Of a stretch of DNA of 60,000 bases, positions 4,896 to 49,501 are shown piece after piece. The stretch is from Botryllus schlosseri. Lineage: Eukaryota. The first letter of the stretch is position 1, and each line of letters starts with the position of its first letter. The position numbers were made by a program, and so were the translations under genes. The stretch covers positions 30,444,001 through 30,504,000 of the forward strand of contig CM119371.1 of the NCBI GenBank assembly GCA_051294905.1, read 5' to 3'. Under the pieces are notes generated by a model, which saw nothing but the letters and a program-made list of their open reading frames with translations, ran no database searches and was not told where the DNA came from.

Positions 4896-6394
4896 TCTGG
4901 TGGTGTTGACGTAGCGCATCTGGTCTGCTGCTAATGCTGTCGTGTAAATAGCGAACAGGAATCACGCACTGGTAATATAGATTTTATTCTAAAATATTTG
5001 CTGAAGCAATATGGTATTTCATACATGGATACATTCGAGATTTTCCGGATATATCACGCGCGACGCCATGGCTACAGTGTATTGGCGCGAATGTAACATC
5101 TGGACTAAAATGGGGCGAGATGTGATATGTGGGCGAAGCGAATATATTGGTATAGACATTGAGCCTCTGGATAACACTAACAACGTATACATTAATAAAT
5201 AAAAATTGATCAATCGCGAGTAAGCGTGACGAACTGAGCAAACAAGACTACTAACAAAAACGAAATATCTTGCTGTGGTGACACCTCCATAACTAAGTTA
5301 ATAAAGTATATTGAATTACTATATTACGATATGACGATGGTGGATAGGAAAAAGAATAGCTTGTTTATTGATTCTTCGATATTCAAATTCATTCATCCCG
5401 TTGTGAAATTATGAAAATACGCAAGGTCTTCAGGAGAATAACCACTGTTTTACGACTTACAATTCTTCAAGCTCTTGCTAAGAAACATTGAGTGCAGAGT
5501 GTAGCGTGCAAATGATGTAAAAGTACATATACATTGAACAATGAACACGTAGTGTATTGCACATCGTGCGGGAATATCTACTCATTCGTGATTCGCTAAT
5601 GTAATTGATATGAAACAACTACTACAAGAAATATATAGGCTACACATAGCCCAGTTGAATAATTCCAATGCGAGGAGCCCATTTCGAAATTTAATTTAAT
5701 TTTGTTCTATCAATCACAGCGTATATATTGTACATCGACATGCCCTGGTGAAATCATAGGATTGGGATTGTCTCAACCATTCATGCTGTGCTTGTTTGGT
5801 TCACTCCGGAAATATAAATGTGGTAACTGGTAAGTCTGATGTTTTACGGACTTGTATGCTCGCATGAATTTTTGTGACACAGCAGTTCAAGAATTCTGCA
5901 CGCGTCATTGCATTCCAATATTGTCATTGTCTGTGCAAACAATACGCTACGAGCGCTTGAGAACAGCTACGATTTTCGTCAGGCAATAAATGTCCCGGTA
6001 AGTCTGCAAAAATTGAACGAAGAGCTATCCAATATAGGACTTTATCACAGACGTTAGGCCATGAATGATGATGTAGTAATGCCGGAACGGATGGTACCAG
6101 CCTCACGTCATTATTTTCATACCACATAGCATTCCAACTACAGTACGATATTAATGTTGAATCGATACTATCACCATCTTCCTGGTGTGGTATACATAAA
6201 TATGATTTCGCGCTATTTCTTGATTCAGCTTGCGAATCAGGTTTGGTGAAAAATCGGGAAATATCAAGAAAGCGAAATACACCAGACAGTGAGAGATATA
6301 CTATAATGCGTTCGATAGACAGGGAAATTTGAACAGCTTCTTGGAGGTACAGAACTTCACTATACAATTAAAATGTATATTCATATTGAAATGA

Positions 6395-6438
6395 ACCCGA
6401 ATATTTTCAGCTGACACTCGTCAGGGGTAATCGTCAGC
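6395..6438 (-). ncRNA. Minimal type I hammerhead ribozyme motif (family A; G10.1-U11.1 wobble)
   Basis: Reverse complement GCUGACG-AUU-ACCC-CUGACGA-G-UGUCAGC-U-GAAA-AUAU-UC-GGGU; same strand as the GIY-YIG ORF and downstream of it. Confidence 0.7.
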
Positions 6439-6549
6439 AACTAGTAGACAATTCAAAAGAACATCGTATATCAACAATCGTATCACAAAATAAGACGTCA
6501 CCAGCATGAAATGTCGAGTACGAGAGCGTTCAATGTACAATTTTTAGAT

Positions 6550-6747
6550 CAGTGGTTCCCAACCTGGAGGTGCACCCCCCCCCCCCTTGAGGGGGCGTGA
6601 AAGCATCTAAAGGGGGCGCGAAGGAGCGGTCAACTGAAAAAAATTCGCGCACTGCGCGATTTACCTCCAATTCACGCGTGTTTCTCTCTCTCTATATATA
6701 TATCTATCATATAGGGGGCGTTTTTTAAGAAAGGTTGGGAACCACTA
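6550..6747. mobile_element. hAT MITE inserted in the Penelope-like element
   Basis: TIRs CAGTGGTTCCCAACC / GGTTGGGAACCACTA; 8-bp TSD TTTTAGAT. Confidence 0.85.
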
Positions 6748-7163
6748 TTTTAGATGATAGACGAACTCTCTTTGATGACACAGCATTGGCTGGTGTATTT
6801 TGATAAAAGTCGACTCCAAGGCACACAAATGAAAGTGTGAACGACCCTTTCCGAGTATGCGAAATCTGTCGTCTCGTTAATTTTTCGCACAGGCGGGATT
6901 ATCCAACAAGAGTTTGGCAATTGCAGAATTTATGGCCTTCAATTGTTCTGCATCAATCTTGAGCGGATGAGTTAAGGGTGAGCTTTCCACCGAGCGTGTT
7001 CTAATGAATCTGGGGACATGCTGATTTAGGCGTTCCTGCAAGCGCTTTGACGTTCTTCCCACGTAGCCACAATCACACTGTCACTTGAAATTCGTAAACT
7101 ACAATTCGTCATATTTTGTGATACGATTGTTGATATACGATGTTCTTTTTAATTCTACTACTT

Positions 7164-7207
7164 GTTGACGATTACCCCTGACGAGTGTCAGCCGAAAATA
7201 TCCGGGT
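7164..7207 (+). ncRNA. Hammerhead motif, family A, probably inactive copy
   Basis: ACCC-CUGACGA-G-UGUCAGC-C-GAAA-AUAU-CC-GGGU; U16.1 is replaced by C relative to the other copies. Confidence 0.55.
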
Positions 7208-8531
7208 TCATTTCAATATGATTAATGATTATACTATTCAACGGGTAAATTTCTATAGAGTCTGGTTGCTAAACCCGAAACTAATTCGCCCTTCGCGTCG
7301 CAATCCGATACGACATATCCGCACCCAGCGATGTAATGCAATATCTGTGTATAAAGCACGATCGGGCTGCAATCTAGGTACATCGAATGTTAACGTCACG
7401 GACCATTGGATTTATAGGCTACCCAACGCTGCAACAGCGGCGAACGACCCGACCATAACATCGGCGTCCCCGGCATACGAGGTAAACCGATTCCGTGAAG
7501 GCTTTCACTATAAATATAATGTACGTTATATACAGTTACAATACTAGCGCTCTGCGCTAGCATATAGCCTAGTTTCCAGCTGGTATGTAGTGATAAGTTG
7601 GACAATTATATACAGAGGTCGCCTTGTGGCATTTGGAGGCATGTTAGACGTTGCACGCTGGCTTTCTTTGCGATTTCTAGCGCCATACAATCTCAAACAC
7701 AGTAACACACTGCCAAACGGCTAATCCCTCATTGCTCCGTGTAGTTCTTATTATAGCTCGAAATGGGCTTCCTTAGCAGAAAAAACCTGACGACACACTG
7801 TATAATATCGCTGCTTCTGATTTCTAAAAAGCGTAGACTGGCTTTGATACTCTGCATATCAACACCGACTGAGAATTGAAATCTTCTGCCTTCGAGCGTT
7901 ACCTATAGAACGCCAGCGCGCTCATAATTTCGTATAATTACATTCTTCGTACCAAGATGTTACCGTATGCACGCTAGTCGCAGTGAAACCAACTGCCCTG
8001 TGAACTGTAGCGCCTTCGCTTCACGGACGCTGGTTATCGTGAAGACTTCCGCAATGCCACGCGCATTTATCACGAATAGCTGAGATGTGGACATTGGTAA
8101 ATGAACTCTATTCTACAACGTCGGTTCTTGGCTGGTATCTCATTTGACACATCGGTAACGGTTATAACATAACAGCGTCGTTTCACCCTGGTGCGGTATA
8201 TAAGCCCGACACGATGCTTAAATGGACAGGACACTGCTATCTAAATATGGTGTGTTCTTGAATTCAAGATGAGAGTGAAAAAGGAATTTTGGCAGCAGCC
8301 ATTTTCTTCAGAGTGGCACCGTACCGTATTCGAACTGTAGCGAAAAGAATTTTACGAAAAATACGATTCCGGTCAATCTCTGTGATATCGAGGAGACGCT
8401 TTTAACCTTTTGCGAAAGTTTTGGCACGCATTTCATCAATGTTATATTAATCTTTTTCAATGCGGTCAGGGATAGAATGCGAGAGAGAGAATTTCTTGCT
8501 TCGTCAACCGAAACAAACAACAAACACTTGG

Positions 8532-11225: not shown

Positions 11226-11605
11226 AGTATTGCTTTCACAACTACATTCATTGCAGTAAAGAATTTATTAACTCGAAGACTTTTCGTGTGCCCCTTATCG
11301 AGAGTTAACGGCACGATAATAAGCATACAGAGAGAGATTCAAACGAAAACCAAATTGGCAGAGCATGGCGTAATAATACAATAATAAAAAATTAACGCTA
11401 GGCAAAGTCAGCTGTTCCGGTAGTCATAACAAGAGACGAGAGAGTATCAAATTATACAATAATGCACGGAAGACAACACACAGACAAATAGCGGTATATA
11501 TTAATAAATAACGGTATATATTAATAAAGTTAATGAATTCTTTACTACAATGAATGTAGTTGTGAAAGCAATACTCAAGTTTAGTACCGCCAACCATATT
11601 TTCAA
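11226..11605 (-). mobile_element. Second Penelope-type terminal-repeat insertion (family B)
   Basis: 49-bp inverted repeats 11225-11273 / 11529-11577; 13-bp direct repeat GTTATAATAATAG at 11213 and 11606; hammerhead-like motif next to the left arm; no coding remnant seen. Confidence 0.55.
11268..11315 (-). ncRNA. Variant minimal hammerhead motif (family B; U3-A8, C4)
   Basis: Reverse complement CGUGCCG-UUAACUC-UCGAUAA-G-GGGCACA-C-GAAA-AGUCU-UC-GAGUUAA; 7-bp stem I. Confidence 0.6.
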
Positions 11606-21946: not shown

Positions 21947-23175
21947 TATTATTGTAGGCTATTTTCCTTATTCGTATACCACACGATTGTTGTACACGGC
22001 TAAAGAGTGTCCGGAATTTGAGCCGCGAAAACATGGTAATCCTGGCCGTGTGACAAGTCGGTAGCTACGGAATAAAAGTGAAGAAAAATAGTCTGGTGTA
22101 AATGACCATAGTATTCGACAAAACACCATGAATAGTCCACCACAAACAACATCAATAACAAGATGACAATGTAGCCCGCGGCCACAGTCCACTACTTGCT
22201 TCTTTACTAGCTACGTCAAATTATGGTGACTCTATAGAGCAGTGGTTCTCAACCTTTTTTCCTCCGGCGCCCCCTTTCAAAAATTATCGTGCTCTAGCGC
22301 ACAGATAGACCTCTAATTTTTGACGAGTCTGCGCACACTCACCAACTCACAGCGCAGACCCTTGGACAACAGTGTGTAACGACTTAAAAAAAGGTCATCA
22401 CTTCGTATTTTTTGCGCAACTTCGATTTTCTGTGCGCAGATATCATACCAGCGCTGCGTGGGGAAGAGGAGCCCGCAGATGAACCTCCGACGGGAATCGA
22501 TCGGGTACACCAGCTTAGTAGGCGTTTATCGCTATTTCCAAAATATGATAACCCTATGTTATGTGCCTCGAGAGGATAACAATAATGCGAGCGCTGATTA
22601 TAAATATCGATTTGAGGTAAGAACATAAACACAATATAGGCCTCTGCGAAGTGCGAATACAGACGATACGGTTCAATTCACATGTCACGTTTGACGTATG
22701 TCAATAACAGGAGCCGGTGAGCTAGCAGCAGCAGCATATGGCGAATGTTGAGTGTATAATGAACGCAGATTTGATAATCATGGTGATGATAATGGCATAT
22801 ATGATATATCTGTAATCAAATCTGAATTTATAATATAATTTTCTTTGTCTGCTGCTCGGCTATTGTGATTATTAGTGACCGTAATCAGTAAGTTAATCCG
22901 TTAATCGTTGGGTTATATTTTCATGAATCTCGATAAGTCACACACAATGTAGCCTACAAAGGCTACAATGCGATGTAATGAACAGATAGGAAGAGTTATT
23001 CTGTTCCGTGTTCACTTGCGCCAGGGCCAGTATACGGAGCGCACTGCTCAGGATACCTGCCATAATGTTGATGTAACTTATATATTTGCGTCGCTATGTT
23101 GAAGTATTCACCCTCGTATAGCGTTACCTTATTCTTCTTCATCTTTAATTAAATAATATATTCATATTGAAATGA

Positions 23176-23219
23176 ACCCGAATATTTTCGGCTGACACTC
23201 GTCAGGGGTAATCGTCAGC
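23176..23219 (-). ncRNA. Minimal type I hammerhead ribozyme motif (family A, intact)
   Basis: Exact reverse complement of 23242-23285. Confidence 0.8.
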
Positions 23220-23241
23220 AACTAGTAGAGAATTGCTAGTT

Positions 23242-23285
23242 GCTGACGATTACCCCTGACGAGTGTCAGCCGAAAATATTCGGGT
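23242..23285 (+). ncRNA. Minimal type I hammerhead ribozyme motif (family A, intact); predicted cleavage after C23281
   Basis: Stem I ACCC/GGGU, core CUGACGA, G10.1-C11.1 closing a 7-nt loop, GAAA, palindromic stem III AAUAUU, UUC triplet. Confidence 0.8.
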
Positions 23286-23594
23286 TCATTTCAATATGAA
23301 TATATTATTTTATTGTATATTGAAGTTCTTCATCTTTGTGCATCTACAAATGGTTTGCCATACTGGATATAAACAATATAAGCCCATTGTCATATAGTGT
23401 GCTCTTCCTGGCTGTAGCTTCCGCTGTCGTCATGACTTTTTTACGATGTGATGTAGAAGTTGTGGCATTCCACGTTTGTAAGTCAGTAAGTGACATTGGA
23501 AGAGAGGAAGGCCCTCTTTGCTTTGACATTGTGAGGTATGATGCATGAATATAGTGCATTTGGTTCGCTGCCTCGCAATTTGTGAGGGGTCTCA

Positions 23595-31407: not shown

Positions 31408-32069
31408 GTGCCGCGACCCTTCTCTCAATTTGGCGTGCTGTTTACTAAAAAAATGGTCAGCACCTTCACTCAGACTAAAAATTTATTCAGAAATGAGCTG
31501 ACGATATCATCCGGTTTATTGGCATTCCTGTAATAGTCATTGATATTTAATTTTTGTCTCTGTGACCCCAAGACGACTCGTTAGCTGTAATCGTCAGCAA
31601 CTAGTAAAGAATTGAAGAGAACATTGTACATCAACCAAGCATGTAATGACTCGAGTCACGATTTCTTGGTGACTCGACTTGACTCGAGTCTTTTTCTTGA
31701 AAATGAAGAATGACTCGACTCGAGTCAATTTGTCTATTGATTCGAATTGTACTAGAGTACTTGCGCATGACTCGAACCAAGACATATTACTCGAGACTGG
31801 GTCCACGAAGACAGGCATTTCATTGTGATTTCCAAGAATAGTATAGTTATCACGCTATTATTATTTCTTCTATCAGCACTGGTACTTAAAAATGCTACCT
31901 GAAACTGTTAAAAGTGAGGAAAATTAGTATATTAAGAATGCGAAGCATTCGACATCACCGAGCAGAGTTATAAAAAGTGGGTTTCACAAGACATTAACTC
32001 GGAACTGAACAGTCAACACAATGACTCGGACGCGACCCTCTACTCGCTGACTTTGACTTGACTCGGTGG

Positions 32070-33214: not shown

Positions 33215-33373
33215 CCTTATATCAAGAATCGTATCATGAAATACGACGCCATCGGCATGAAATTACGAATGATAGAGTCGAACAGATAGCTCAAGCTCAA
33301 TGTACTATTTTATACGGGTTTATTTTGATATAAATATACTATTAAATTGGTTATCGAAGTTCTTTACCTCTAA

Positions 33374-47690: not shown

Positions 47691-47924
47691 GTAAGAATCA
47701 TCATGCAACCCAATGGTTCTCAACAAGGGTCCGTGAAGTTTATAAATTTGAAAATAAGTAATAACATAATTTGTAATTTTTTTTTAATTCGGGAAAGCAT
47801 GAGACAGTTTTCTTTCATAATTGCTACAACTTCAGGTCTCGCATCATTAGAATAGTCATGTGATATAAAAAATCCTTGGGTTACAGAACATCATAACACA
47901 TTTGAATAAAATATTCATATTTAT

Positions 47925-47968
47925 TCCCGAAGCTTTTCGGCAGACCCTCGTCAGGGGATATCGTCAGC
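47925..47968 (-). ncRNA. Minimal hammerhead motif, diverged family A, in an isolated Penelope-type terminal repeat (~47905-48032)
   Basis: Reverse complement GCUGACG-AUA-UCCC-CUGACGA-G-GGUCUGC-C-GAAA-AGCU-UC-GGGA; compensatory changes in stems I and III. Confidence 0.8.
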
Positions 47969-49501
47969 AATATTGCGAGAATTCGAATAACTATGTTCAA
48001 CAACAATATATATCGCTAATTATGACGTCACACAGAAAATATACAAAGTTAGAAAAACGAGAGAACTGAAACGTTGGCAAGGAGATAGCGAAGCAAAACA
48101 AGTCAGGCATTACATAATATCATTGGCTACGATGGACTCTCACGTATGTTTCTCCAATAGTGATTGCAGTGGTTATCATGAAGGCTGAACAGCGAACACC
48201 ATGATTTGAGTACTCGGATTCGCGTCGAGTATTGTTTTCGATGACTCTTGTTAAGTAAAATGGTAAATTGTTGAGTACGAGTAAGATACACCCCTTTCGA
48301 CAAACGAGCCATTTTCCCATCATTAAAGCCTCGAAACTTCGATTGGCTTCATCATAACAACCATAAATGTAGCATGATGCTAGTCATGTTCGCGGAGACA
48401 AGACACGTTTGAGTAGTGATCAACTCTACGCATTAGCACATGGTGTGTGTCATAGTTTTTAAAATATTTATTTCACCAGTTGTAACTGACATTATTTTCT
48501 ATATCATCGTATGAAAGGTGCATATTTGAACTTCGGGATTCGCTCTTACTATATGCATGACGTATGACGTATGACGTCGTAATGAGTGGTACTCGAATGC
48601 TCGAAGCTAATGGTGCTTGATTTTGCCCAGCCTTAGTAATCACATATAAAGCAAAATCGAAAGTATTGAAGTATATTATTGACAGGTTTATGCTTTAAGC
48701 ACAATGTGCTCTAAACATGATGTGGCCTCAAATTATAGTTGAGGGCAATGAAAACATTATGGCAGCAGTCATAGGCGCCTGCTTTTATATTTGCATGCGG
48801 TGGCGGCAGGCGCGTAGCCAGGGGGTGTCGAAACACCCTCCATTGAAACGCAAAACCCCGTCCTTTTGAAATGGCCATTCTGACGCTAATATTCAGTTGC
48901 AATCCAACAAGTCGTGTTATCAGTTTTACGCGGGGCCGCGACCAATTAGTGGGATTCGTCTAGGCACGCATATCGCATCGCACAATGCTACGCCACACGA
49001 TCTCCCGCTGAGATGATTGCGATATTAGGTCATTGATTGCCGCGCACTAGGCATTCGTCGCTGGACTGAGAGCACTGAGCAGTAACACATCGCGACAATT
49101 CTGGAATACGAAAGACAGACAAGAATTATGATTACGCGCGCGGCCAATCAGTAATCATCCCTTACCGCCAACACAATGGGTTTTTACTTAGTATTGAGTA
49201 GCTCGCATCGCGACAATTGGTTGCTGGTTATGGTACCCTGAGTTGAATCCCATGACAGAGTTCTTTTTCAACAAAATCTAAACCAGATAAGAGTTAATGT
49301 CGCTTTTACGAGTATTGAACGCTGCCTTCGGAGCCTCACTATCAAGAGCTCCTCGCGTTTGTGGTCTCCCCATAGTTTAATCCCCCAGTATAATCCACAC
49401 TTCAATTTTGTAACACAATAATCTGCTTTTTCTGTCGTAAAGTGTTAACTACTGCAAATATCAGCACGTATATATCATTGAAGCGGAATGTGGTCTTTTA
49501 G

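What the first reader, a model, noticed from the sequence alone, without database searches (positions are those of the whole stretch)
23242..23285. Minimal hammerhead ribozyme with a putative loop II / 5'-extension pseudoknot conserved across unrelated repeat families
Seen: a full hammerhead core (CUGACGA..GAAA..UUC), 4-bp stem I, a single G-C pair for stem II and a palindromic stem III (AAUAUU). The 7-nt loop II UGUCAGC is fully complementary (6 Watson-Crick pairs + 1 G-U) to GCUGACG at -14..-8 before C3. The unrelated family-B motif (11268-11315) pairs GUGCC with loop GGCAC in the same register, and the 47925 copy keeps 5 of 7 pairs. Established: Penelope-like elements carry minimal type I hammerheads that are thought to cleave as dimers through palindromic stem III and are usually described as lacking loop I/II tertiary contacts. 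Inference: these carry a base-paired tertiary contact, possibly an undescribed subtype. The same pairing could instead be an inhibitory alternative fold.
Basis: partly seen in the sequence, partly recalled or inferred. Interest (0 to 1): 0.9.

Follow-up and report, generated by a model that had tools for sequence, protein, structure and literature searches.

The report
Retrotransposon hammerhead ribozyme with pseudoknot
This is a small self-cutting RNA motif at the end of a dead fragment of a Penelope-like jumping gene.

Summary
The site is as described: a complete minimal type I hammerhead (core 23256-23262, GAAA 23272-23275, cut after C23281). It lies in one arm of a 179-bp head-to-head pair of 5'-truncated copies of a Penelope-like element (PLE) that is very abundant in this 495-Mb genome.

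The loop II / 5'-flank pairing is real, but it has 6 pairs (L2-L7 with -9..-14), not 7. On 105 distinct copies, 84% of cells pair, against 14-38% in slid registers. Four of the 6 pairs show double changes, as strongly as in stem I. An 8-nt-loop family adds a fifth such pair.

The "unrelated" family B is a related PLE family with the known U3-A8 core variant.

Best reading: the helix replaces the 3-8-bp hairpin helix II of published PLE minimal hammerheads. This is the solution already known from pseudoknot hammerheads (Perreault 2011; crystal structure 8YDC).

Not shown:
- Cleavage. RNA reads run through the cut site.
- Whether the helix serves catalysis rather than reverse-transcriptase binding.
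- Whether Lünse et al. 2017, which I could not read, already described it.

This particular copy would fold into an 80-bp hairpin and is a relic. Verdict: new variant of a known kind, moderate interest.

The parts
23147..23325 (.). Whole insertion: a head-to-head pair of two roughly 90-nt 3'-terminal fragments of a Penelope-like element (minus-strand copy about 23147-23235, plus-strand copy about 23236-23325).
   Evidence: Self-BLAST gives an inverted match of 168 nt at 94%. As RNA it folds into one hairpin of about 80 bp, -136.8 kcal/mol, z -28.6.
23135..23146 (+). Left copy of a putative 12-bp target-site duplication, TTCTTCATCTTT.
   Evidence: Read by eye. The boundary is ambiguous by up to 4 nt.
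23326..23337 (+). Right copy of the putative target-site duplication, TTCTTCATCTTT.
   Evidence: Read by eye.
23242..23247 (+). 5' strand of the pseudoknot helix (positions -14..-9, GCUGAC). G23248 (-8) is not supported as paired outside family A.
23252..23255 (+). Stem I, 5' strand (ACCC).
23256..23262 (+). Catalytic box C3-A9 (CUGACGA).
23263..23271 (+). G10.1 (23263), loop II with L1 at 23264 and L2-L7 at 23265-23270 (the 3' strand of the pseudoknot helix, GUCAGC), and C11.1 (23271).
23272..23281 (+). G12 A13 A14 A15.1 (23272-23275); palindrome AAUAUU (23275-23280), which is a 1-bp stem III with an AUAU loop or a 6-bp intermolecular helix in a dimer; C17 at 23281. The predicted cut lies between 23281 and 23282.
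   Evidence: The palindrome changes to AAGCUU in other subfamilies.
23282..23285 (+). Stem I, 3' strand (GGGU).
23176..23219 (-). Mirror hammerhead on the minus strand: extension 23219-23213, C3 at 23205, C17 at 23180, stem I 3' strand 23179-23176.
6351..6453 (-). Another family A fragment (C3 at 6424). C11.1 is changed to U.
7154..7233 (+). Family A fragment facing the previous one (C3 at 7178). U16.1 is changed to C and the extension reads GTTGACG.
47885..47970 (-). Subfamily A2 fragment (C3 at 47954): palindrome AAGCUU, stem I UCCC/GGGA, loop GGUCUGC (5 of 7 pairs with the extension).
11264..11320 (-). Family B fragment: core UCGAUAA (U3...A8 type, with U4 changed to C in this copy), loop GGGCACA, extension GUGCC, stem I UAACUC/GAGUUA, stem III AAGUCUU.

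Best explanation
The motif is the minimal type I hammerhead that a lineage of Penelope-like retroelements carries between the stop codon of one unit and the start codon of the next.

In this lineage the usual 3-8-bp hairpin helix II is reduced to the single G10.1-C11.1 pair. Six of the seven loop nucleotides (L2-L7) pair instead with a single-stranded segment 9 to 14 nt upstream of C3. This helix probably stacks on G10.1-C11.1 and does the work of helix II. At the same time it ties the 5' side of stem I to the helix II side, as in known pseudoknot hammerheads.

Stem III is only a palindrome, so two units (for example in a tandem transcript) would pair through it. Each pseudoknot-closed 5' module would then cut the other unit after C17.

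Shown here: the anatomy, the element, and selection on the pairing. Inferred: coaxial stacking, dimer cleavage, and that the helix serves catalysis.

The window's own copy is a truncated head-to-head relic. Its transcript would form a long hairpin rather than a ribozyme.
For: Element:
- L190 holds a full unit of 2692 bp with 100% identical direct repeats at both ends.
- It has an 860-aa frame with RVT_1 at E 7.8e-9 and a weak C-terminal GIY-YIG match (E 0.021, below the cut-off).
- The order along the unit is stop codon, 90 nt, extension, 8 nt, core, cut, 14 nt, ATG.
- L031 is a 1480-nt perfect head-to-head pair.
- Copies end at two preferred distances after the cut, as for the PLE 'tail' (Craig 2021 passages; Frangieh 2024 passages).

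Pairing, counted on 105 distinct copies whose extension was never constrained by any search pattern:
- 84.3% of 630 cells pair, against 13.5-37.8% in six slid registers.
- The covariation score is 0.352, against at most 0.086 in the slid registers.
- 0 of 500 shuffles reach the observed values for cells paired, cells with a change on both sides, or covariation score.
- Pair types: -14:L7 is GC 47, AU 29, UA 3. -13:L6 is CG 70, GC 11. -10:L3 is AU 61, GC 14, CG 9.
- This is as good as stem I (79.6% against 77.4% of cells paired).

Further support for the pairing:
- The 8-nt-loop family splits into GCCGAC/GUUGGC and GCUGAC/GUCAGC, with no cross combination among the 100 rows listed (my count by eye).
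- The G.U fixed in the first of these fits an RNA of this strand.
- Genome-wide on the ACUGRC...GYCAGU backbone: G-C 191, A-U 199, G.U 14, A.C 7.
- A metagenome contig carries a further state, U-A at -14:L7, with 7 of 7 pairs. The other 23 of 24 pattern hits are chance hits with 0-4 of 7 pairs.
- The distance from the helix to C3 is 8 nt in every family.
- The paired nucleotides belong to no other part of the hammerhead.

Precedent:
- In crystal structure 8YDC a 6-bp pseudoknot 'fulfils the same role' as helix II (Zhan 2024, part 1).
Against: - No cleavage is shown. In four RNA runs laid on L031:3450-3950 no place has many molecules beginning or ending, and depth runs straight through the cut site 3803/3804 (X23: 632/660 falling to 598/595). 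Most of these reads come from truncated copies embedded in other transcripts, since 68-98% run on into unlike sequence.
- No Rfam hammerhead model matches. There is nothing at gathering score. At E up to 10 the only hammerhead hit is RAGATH-1-hammerhead at 14.5 bits against a gathering score of 56.3, on the palindromic copy. On the full-length copy there is none.
- Published PLE hammerheads cleave poorly in vitro. A 5'-shortened S. mansoni construct showed no hidden tertiary contact (Cervera 2014 text and the Fig. S6 legend).
- Covariation shows that the helix is selected, not what it is for.
- G.U (14) is not significantly more frequent than A.C (7).
- With a 6-bp stem I only 2 nt link the two helices, which may be tight. 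No 3D model was made.
- In family A the minimum-free-energy fold of the monomer prefers a competing hairpin between C3-C7 and the loop.
Confidence: 0.6

Rival explanations
1. The extension/loop II helix is a stem of the element's 3'-terminal RNA structure. The reverse transcriptase/endonuclease protein recognises it next to the site where reverse transcription starts. The hammerhead core simply lies in the loop of that stem.
For: - Inserted copies end about 23-32 nt and 68-72 nt after the cut site, so reverse transcription begins just downstream of this structure.
- Frangieh 2024 (passages) found internal RT start sites downstream of the hammerhead. They also found that the hammerhead cleaved only with protein added, and that core mutants did not affect insertion in vitro.
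- In isolation the helix is the minimum-free-energy structure of the 5' part in 6 of the 8 subfamily representatives folded, at -6.5 to -11.4 kcal/mol.
Against: - The helix is built exactly where helix II is missing and has the length of a normal PLE helix II (1 + 6 bp).
- It leaves every core nucleotide free.
- The same design is a proven catalytic aid in other hammerheads.
- The two roles do not exclude each other.
Confidence: 0.2
2. The pairing is a regulatory or inhibitory alternative fold. It keeps monomeric RNA from cutting until a second unit or a protein remodels it.
For: - Minimal PLE hammerheads are thought to be inactive as monomers (Cervera 2014).
- No ends appear at the cut site in RNA reads.
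- The helix forms before stem I can, because both of its strands are transcribed first.
Against: - The helix sequesters no nucleotide of the core, stem I or stem III, and there is no proper helix II for it to compete with.
- The fold that does compete with the core (C3-C7 with L2-L6) exists only in family A and is not kept in families B and C.
Confidence: 0.1
3. The complementarity is an accident of descent: linked diagnostic substitutions of subfamilies, or a leftover of an inverted duplication, with no selection on pairing.
For: - All copies come from one genome and from related families, so shuffle tests overstate significance (caveat printed).
- In family A the extension contains a second CUGACGA box.
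Against: - At least 9 separate double changes keep the pairs, on different backbones.
- The slid registers, which keep relatedness, give 13.5-37.8% paired against 84.3%.
- Close subfamilies differ by 6 of 56 positions (rows L122 and L143). Four of these are two compensatory pairs, one improves a wobble pair, and one is the free N7.
Confidence: 0.05
4. It is a terminal inverted repeat of a DNA transposon, or a foldback or microRNA-like hairpin, and the hammerhead-like letters are incidental.
For: - Motifs occur as facing pairs at variable distance.
- The window copy folds as a long hairpin and gives sub-threshold matches to microRNA precursor models.
Against: - The arms are 5'-truncated copies of an RT-encoding unit, with junctions at variable points.
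- A full-length unit has direct, not inverted, repeats.
- The outer ends vary and are flanked by a 12-bp duplication.
- Facing pairs of this kind are described for PLEs.
Confidence: 0.02

Closest known systems
Minimal hammerheads of Penelope-like elements (Cervera & de la Pena 2014, PMC4209133; Lunse, Weinberg & Breaker 2017, not readable here)
   Same: - Type I topology with a 4-6-bp stem I.
- Stem III reduced to a palindrome, so dimer cleavage is expected.
- Location in the repeats flanking an RT plus GIY-YIG frame.
- Facing copies on opposite strands.
- Thousands of copies per genome.
- A U3-A8 core variant in one family.
   Different: - All 56 representative motifs in their Fig. S3 have a 3-8-bp hairpin helix II and mostly an extra nucleotide after A9. 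Here helix II is one pair, and the loop pairs with the 5' flank.
- Their search descriptor asks for a helix II of at least 3 bp and would not find these.
- A 2017 review by the same group describes PLE motifs as lacking the characteristic tertiary interactions.
Pseudoknot-containing (PK, RAGATH-1) hammerhead, Rfam RF03152, crystal structure 8YDC (Zhan et al. 2024, PMC11300833)
   Same: Helix II is replaced by a 6-bp pseudoknot helix formed by the helix II loop. The core is the standard one.
   Different: - There the partner is the loop of an extra hairpin (helix IV) attached to helix I, and helix III is stable, so it works as a monomer.
- Here the partner is a single-stranded 5' flank, G10.1-C11.1 is kept, and stem III is only a palindrome.
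- The RF03152 model scores 14.5 bits against its gathering score of 56.3.
Hammerheads with a stem I / stem II pseudoknot (Perreault et al. [quoted passage not shown]
   Same: A Watson-Crick helix between a loop and a tail holds stems I and II parallel. One base pair of stem II plus a 6-bp pseudoknot is a tested, active design. The paper reports pseudoknots in all three topological types.
   Different: Those are mostly bacterial, phage or conserved vertebrate ribozymes with a normal stem III. None is described there in a retrotransposon minimal hammerhead.
Double-hammerhead (dimer) cleavage of avocado sunblotch viroid and newt satellite RNAs (Forster et al. 1988, as cited)
   Same: A weak stem III with a palindromic loop, so that two units form one long stem III and cut each other.
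   Different: Those have normal helices I and II with loop-loop contacts and no loop-to-tail helix.

Membership tests
Hammerhead ribozyme (core definition) | CUGANGA box followed by G10.1, and C11.1 followed by GAAA | tested here: met
   23256-23263 and 23271-23275. In alignment A1 these letters are invariant only because the search patterns fixed them.
Hammerhead ribozyme (core definition) | Cleavage triplet N-U-H followed by stem I, which pairs with the strand just before C3 | tested here: met
   UUC at 23279-23281 and ACCC/GGGU. Stem I covaries: CG 41, UA 29, UG 16 at one pair; CG 56, AU 11, GC 8 at another.
Hammerhead ribozyme (core definition) | Hairpin or duplex helix II of two or more pairs | tested here: not met
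   Only G10.1-C11.1. The loop nucleotides are not self-complementary.
Hammerhead ribozyme (core definition) | Self-cleavage after position 17 | tested here: inconclusive
   No pile of read ends at the cut site in four RNA runs. The libraries were not made to capture 5'-OH or cyclic-phosphate ends, and most reads come from embedded monomer fragments.
Rfam hammerhead families (Hammerhead_1, _3, _II, HH9, HH10, RAGATH-1-hammerhead) | Covariance-model score at or above the gathering score | tested here: not met
   No hit at gathering score. At E up to 10 only RF03152 appears, at 14.5 bits against 56.3. No hammerhead model hits the full-length copy.
PLE minimal hammerhead (Cervera & de la Pena 2014) | Lies in the repeats that flank an RT plus GIY-YIG frame of a Penelope-like element | tested here: met
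   L190 has the motif in both 100% identical direct repeats, spaced 2692 nt, around an 860-aa frame with RVT_1. GIY-YIG is only a sub-threshold match (E 0.021), plus the motif read by eye.
PLE minimal hammerhead (Cervera & de la Pena 2014) | Helix III absent or 1 bp, with palindromic positions 15.2-16.2 or a palindromic loop | tested here: met
   AAUAUU, AAGCUU and AAGUCUU in different families.
PLE minimal hammerhead (Cervera & de la Pena 2014) | Helix II hairpin of 3-8 bp, usually with an extra nucleotide between A9 and G10.1 | tested here: not met
   One pair, no extra nucleotide. Compare their 56 motifs and their descriptor.
Pseudoknot hammerheads (Perreault 2011; PK/RAGATH-1) | Covarying Watson-Crick helix between the helix II loop and a segment attached to stem I | tested here: met
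   Six pairs, 84.3% of cells paired, 4 pairs with double changes, slid controls 13.5-37.8%. Further states appear.
Pseudoknot hammerheads (Perreault 2011; PK/RAGATH-1) | The pseudoknot is needed for fast cleavage | not testable with these tools
   Needs kinetics with disruptive and compensatory mutants.
PK/RAGATH-1 hammerhead (RF03152) | The partner of the loop is the loop of an extra hairpin (helix IV) | not tested
   No conserved hairpin around the extension was looked for systematically. The extension lies 2-4 nt from stem I.

The most novel reading that the evidence does not exclude
Pseudoknot-type minimal hammerheads (one-pair helix II, loop II paired to the 5' flank, palindromic stem III) are an undescribed and widespread architecture of Penelope-like elements. 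The standard helix II descriptors and Rfam models miss it. It could account for some elements reported to have a hammerhead core but no canonical hammerhead. It could also give these ribozymes the tertiary clamp, and hence the activity, that PLE hammerheads are said to lack.
Probability: 0.3. Interest if true: 0.65.

Novelty: new variant of a known kind. Interest (0 to 1): 0.5.

Why it matters
PLE hammerheads are described as minimal motifs without tertiary contacts and with poor activity in vitro, and their role in transposition is unsettled.

A lineage in which helix II is replaced by a selected loop-to-flank helix matters for three reasons:
- These ribozymes do use a stabilising contact of the kind proven elsewhere.
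- It gives concrete constructs for asking whether PLE hammerheads can be fast.
- The descriptors used to survey genomes (helix II of at least 3 bp) and the Rfam 15 models under-count them. In this genome the four motif searches gave 4972, 890, 858 and 160 matches.

It does not change what is known about hammerhead chemistry.

Tried and rejected
I worked through pattern searches and fetched stretches instead.
I used a 35-place pattern.
Two single smaller stretches were granted.
- L189 turned out to be two separate truncated insertions, not a full element.
- Lünse, Weinberg & Breaker 2017 is not held, by PMC id or by DOI. A search for 'diminished stem III' found nothing. Whether that paper shows this pairing stays open.
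- Searches for PLE plus hammerhead plus pseudoknot or tertiary interactions turned up no description of a pseudoknot in a PLE hammerhead in the texts I read.
- The 2026 preprint on animal retrozymes has no occurrence of pseudoknot, tertiary or helix II.
- The look-up of sequencing runs listed no holder on record as RNA. I laid the raw RNA runs of the same species label instead.
- The metagenome scan gave 23 chance hits and 1 real member out of 24, so it says little about distribution in other organisms.
- In one search I wrote the structure one column off. It served as an extra slid control and was redone.
- The excess of G.U over A.C intermediates (14 against 7) is too small to use.
- A DNA-transposon reading and a microRNA-hairpin reading were considered and dropped (see rivals).
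- The earlier-findings index holds nothing for this genome.

Full report
**What is at the site**

- extension GCTGACG at 23242-23248
- stem I ACCC (23252-23255) with GGGT (23282-23285)
- CTGACGA at 23256-23262
- G10.1 at 23263
- seven-nucleotide loop TGTCAGC at 23264-23270
- C11.1 at 23271
- GAAA at 23272-23275
- palindrome AATATT at 23275-23280
- C17 at 23281

The same motif lies on the minus strand with C3 at 23205. The two arms match over 168 nt at 94%. As RNA the 179-nt stretch folds into a single hairpin of about 80 bp (-136.8 kcal/mol, z -28.6). That explains the sub-threshold matches to microRNA precursor models.

A 12-bp direct repeat, TTCTTCATCTTT, flanks the insertion at 23135-23146 and 23326-23337 (by eye).

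**What the element is**

The window lies in a 495-Mb genome in 219 contigs.
- The family A motif has 4972 matches there against 0 for the reversed control. They often form facing pairs 75 nt to 3 kb apart.
- L031 is such a pair with perfect 1480-nt arms. Each arm carries the 3' part of a frame with RVT_1.
- L190 holds a full unit on the minus strand. It has 100% identical direct repeats spaced 2692 nt and an 860-aa stop-to-stop frame with RVT_1 (E 7.8e-9). It also has a C-terminal GIY-YIG match that stays below Pfam's cut-off (E 0.021, 15.5 against 22.6 bits).
- Protein-atlas look-alikes are animal RT proteins, one cluster with GIY-YIG on 27% of its members.
- Along the unit the order is stop codon, 90 nt, extension, 8 nt, core, cut, 14 nt, first ATG of the frame.
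- Copies end at variable points, with two preferred boundaries roughly 23-32 and 68-72 nt after the cut.

Partial tandems, facing 5'-truncated copies, a 30-40-bp 'tail' and a hammerhead in the repeats are the published marks of Penelope-like elements (Craig 2021, passages; Cervera & de la Pena 2014, main text parts 1-2; Frangieh 2024, passages).

The window copy is therefore a pair of roughly 90-nt terminal fragments, a relic. The window holds further copies:
- 6424(-), with C11.1 changed
- 7178(+), with U16.1 changed
- 47954(-), subfamily A2
- a family B copy at about 11292(-), with U4 changed

**Is the pairing real**

I collected copies with patterns that fix only core letters and leave the extension free.
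- each gave 30 loci. Their patterns fixed part of the loop.
- (pattern T, 14 free places, CTGADGAG, 7 free places, CGAAA) gave 858 matches against 6 for the control. All 100 listed places were fetched as 97 stretches.
- After removing identical 56-nt segments, 105 distinct rows were aligned. Rows were also dropped if they did not fit the core expression. This excluded three of the window's six copies.

For the six pairs -14..-9 with L7..L2:
- 84.3% of 630 cells are standard pairs, against 13.5-37.8% when the partner is slid by 1-3 columns.
- The covariation score is 0.352, against at most 0.086 in the slid registers.
- 0 of 500 shuffles reach the observed percentage, the number of doubly changed cells (70 against a shuffled mean of 21.3) or the score.
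- The two measures that count pairs or pair types do not stand out (372 and 155 of 500 shuffles reach them).

| Pair | Pair types (of 105 rows) |
|---|---|
| -14:L7 | GC 47, AU 29, UA 3, GU 5, other 21 |
| -13:L6 | CG 70, GC 11, UG 8, other 16 |
| -12:L5 | UA 85, other 20 |
| -11:L4 | GC 82, GU 8, other 15 |
| -10:L3 | AU 61, GC 14, CG 9, GU 9, UG 2, other 10 |
| -9:L2 | CG 81, UG 5, GU 1, UA 1, other 17 |

The helix does as well as stem I, which nobody doubts (79.6% against 77.4% of cells paired).

**Subfamilies**

The states sit in multi-copy subfamilies, not in single decayed copies.

| Subfamily | Extension / loop helix | Stem I | Stem III or other |
|---|---|---|---|
| A1 | GCUGAC / GUCAGC | ACCC / GGGU | AAUAUU |
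| A2 | GCUGAC / GUCAGC | UCCC / GGGA | AAGCUU |
| C1 | ACUGGC / GCCAGU | CACUG / CAGUG | |
| C2 | ACUGGC / GCCAGU | CACUC / GAGUG | |
| C3 | ACUGAC / GUCAGU | | |
| F | ACUGAC / GUCAGU | UCGCUA / UAGCGA | cut after U |
| B | GUGCC / GGCAC | | U3...A8 core |

These are read.

- A family with an 8-nt loop (160 matches against 5 for the control) splits into GCCGAC/GUUGGC and GCUGAC/GUCAGC. By my count by eye, about 30 and 24 of the 100 listed rows carry these, and none carries a cross combination. Here U-A became C-G at -12:L5 and G-C became G.U at -11:L4. A fixed G.U would be a C.A mismatch on the other strand, which points to an RNA of the hammerhead strand.
- Genome-wide on the ACUGRC...GYCAGU backbone the four combinations number G-C 191, A-U 199, G.U 14 and A.C 7. 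This is mostly subfamily structure, and the G.U excess is not significant.
- Rows L122 (C1) and L143 (C3) differ at 6 of 56 places. Two of these form a compensatory pseudoknot pair and two a compensatory stem I pair. One turns a G.U of stem I into A-U, and one is the free N7.
- Single lineages add U-A at -14:L7 (L118/L119), G-C at -10:L3 on a family A backbone, and A-U at -9:L2.
- Counting these, at least nine separate double changes keep the helix.
- A scan of metagenome contigs with a core-only pattern gave 24 loci. Of these, 23 are chance hits with 0-4 of 7 pairs and poor stem I. One, L202, is a real relative with 7 of 7 pairs, 6 of 6 stem I pairs, and U-A at -14:L7.
- The distance from the helix to C3 is 8 nt in every family. 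Stem I takes up 4 to 6 of those 8 nt.

**How it most likely works**

- The six loop nucleotides and the extension belong to no other part of the hammerhead, and the loop cannot form a helix II of its own. The helix therefore competes with nothing in the catalytic fold and crosses stem I, which makes it a pseudoknot.
- Published PLE minimal hammerheads have a hairpin helix II. All 56 representatives in Fig. S3 of Cervera & de la Pena 2014 do (supplement parts 1-2), and the main text describes 7-8 bp in S. mansoni. Here G10.1-C11.1 plus six pairs gives a helix of the same length. I read it as a helix II built with a strand from the other side of stem I.
- The precedent is strong. Perreault 2011 (passages) report pseudoknots between stems I and II in about 40% of hammerheads of all three types. 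[quoted passage not shown]
- Zhan 2024 (part 1) solved a hammerhead in which a 6-bp pseudoknot replaces helix II.
- With a palindromic stem III (AAUAUU, AAGCUU), two units would pair as in the double hammerhead. Each 5' module, closed by its pseudoknot, would cut the other unit's C17. This step is inferred.
- In isolation the helix is the predicted minimum-free-energy fold of the 5' part in 6 of the 8 representatives folded (-6.5 to -11.4 kcal/mol). In the full family A monomer a competing hairpin between C3-C7 and the loop wins. That competitor is not kept in families B and C.

**What speaks against, and what is open**

- Cleavage is not shown. Four raw RNA runs of the same species label, laid on L031:3450-3950, show no place where molecules begin or end. 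Depth is steady across the cut site 3803/3804.
- 68-98% of those reads continue into unlike flanks. They come mostly from fragments embedded in other transcripts, where a dimer-dependent ribozyme would be silent. Frangieh 2024 likewise saw no read ends at the cut site of their element.
- No Rfam hammerhead model reaches even E 10 on the full-length copy, and none reaches gathering score in the window.
- Covariation cannot tell a catalytic clamp from a protein-binding stem next to the start site of reverse transcription. I give that rival 0.2, and the two roles may coexist.
- I could not read Lünse, Weinberg & Breaker 2017. From memory only, its abstract says that most earlier hammerheads carry a pseudoknot or other contact between nucleotides preceding stem I and the stem II loop. 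I cannot say whether it draws such a contact for the PLE variants.
- In what I could read, PLE motifs are described as lacking the characteristic tertiary interactions (de la Pena 2017, passage). A 5'-shortened S. mansoni construct showed no hidden contact (Fig. S6 legend). The published descriptor needs a helix II of at least 3 bp.

**Verdict**

The pairing is real and selected but has six pairs. The families are related. The design is a known one appearing in a new setting.
- Novelty: new variant of a known kind.
- Interest: moderate.

Noticed in passing
L190:2821-2838 (minus strand): The first ATG of the 860-aa frame lies 14 nt after the predicted cut, and the extension lies 90 nt after the previous unit's stop codon. 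Cleavage in a tandem transcript would leave an uncapped RNA with a 14-nt leader.
   Followed up: partly
L087 and L091, around position 1501 (+): A separate multi-copy motif reads CTGATGAG, an 11-nt loop ACCAGTAAATT, then CGAAA. The loop is complementary over 8 nt to GTTACTGGT about 30 nt upstream. There is no palindromic stem III, and 4 unpaired nucleotides precede the stem I partner. It does not fit a canonical hammerhead.
   Followed up: no
window 23242-23249: In family A the extension itself contains a second perfect CUGACGA box. The box is not kept in families B, C, D or F, so it is probably incidental or ancestral.
   Followed up: partly
L031:3598-3818: RNA reads show many 'opposite strands' joints at different positions (for example 3714/3798 and 3710/3774). 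This fits transcripts crossing head-to-head insertions with different truncation points.
   Followed up: no
window 31576-31614 and 33311-33364: Short partial matches (80-90% identity) to the element's terminal fragment, without a hammerhead core match. These are probably older debris.
   Followed up: no
window 6454-7153: About 700 bp lie between two facing family A fragments. I did not check whether this is more of the element or unrelated DNA.
   Followed up: no
window 39901 (minus strand): A lone match to the relaxed U3/A8 expression (TTGAAAAG...CGAAA) with no family context. It looks like chance.
   Followed up: no
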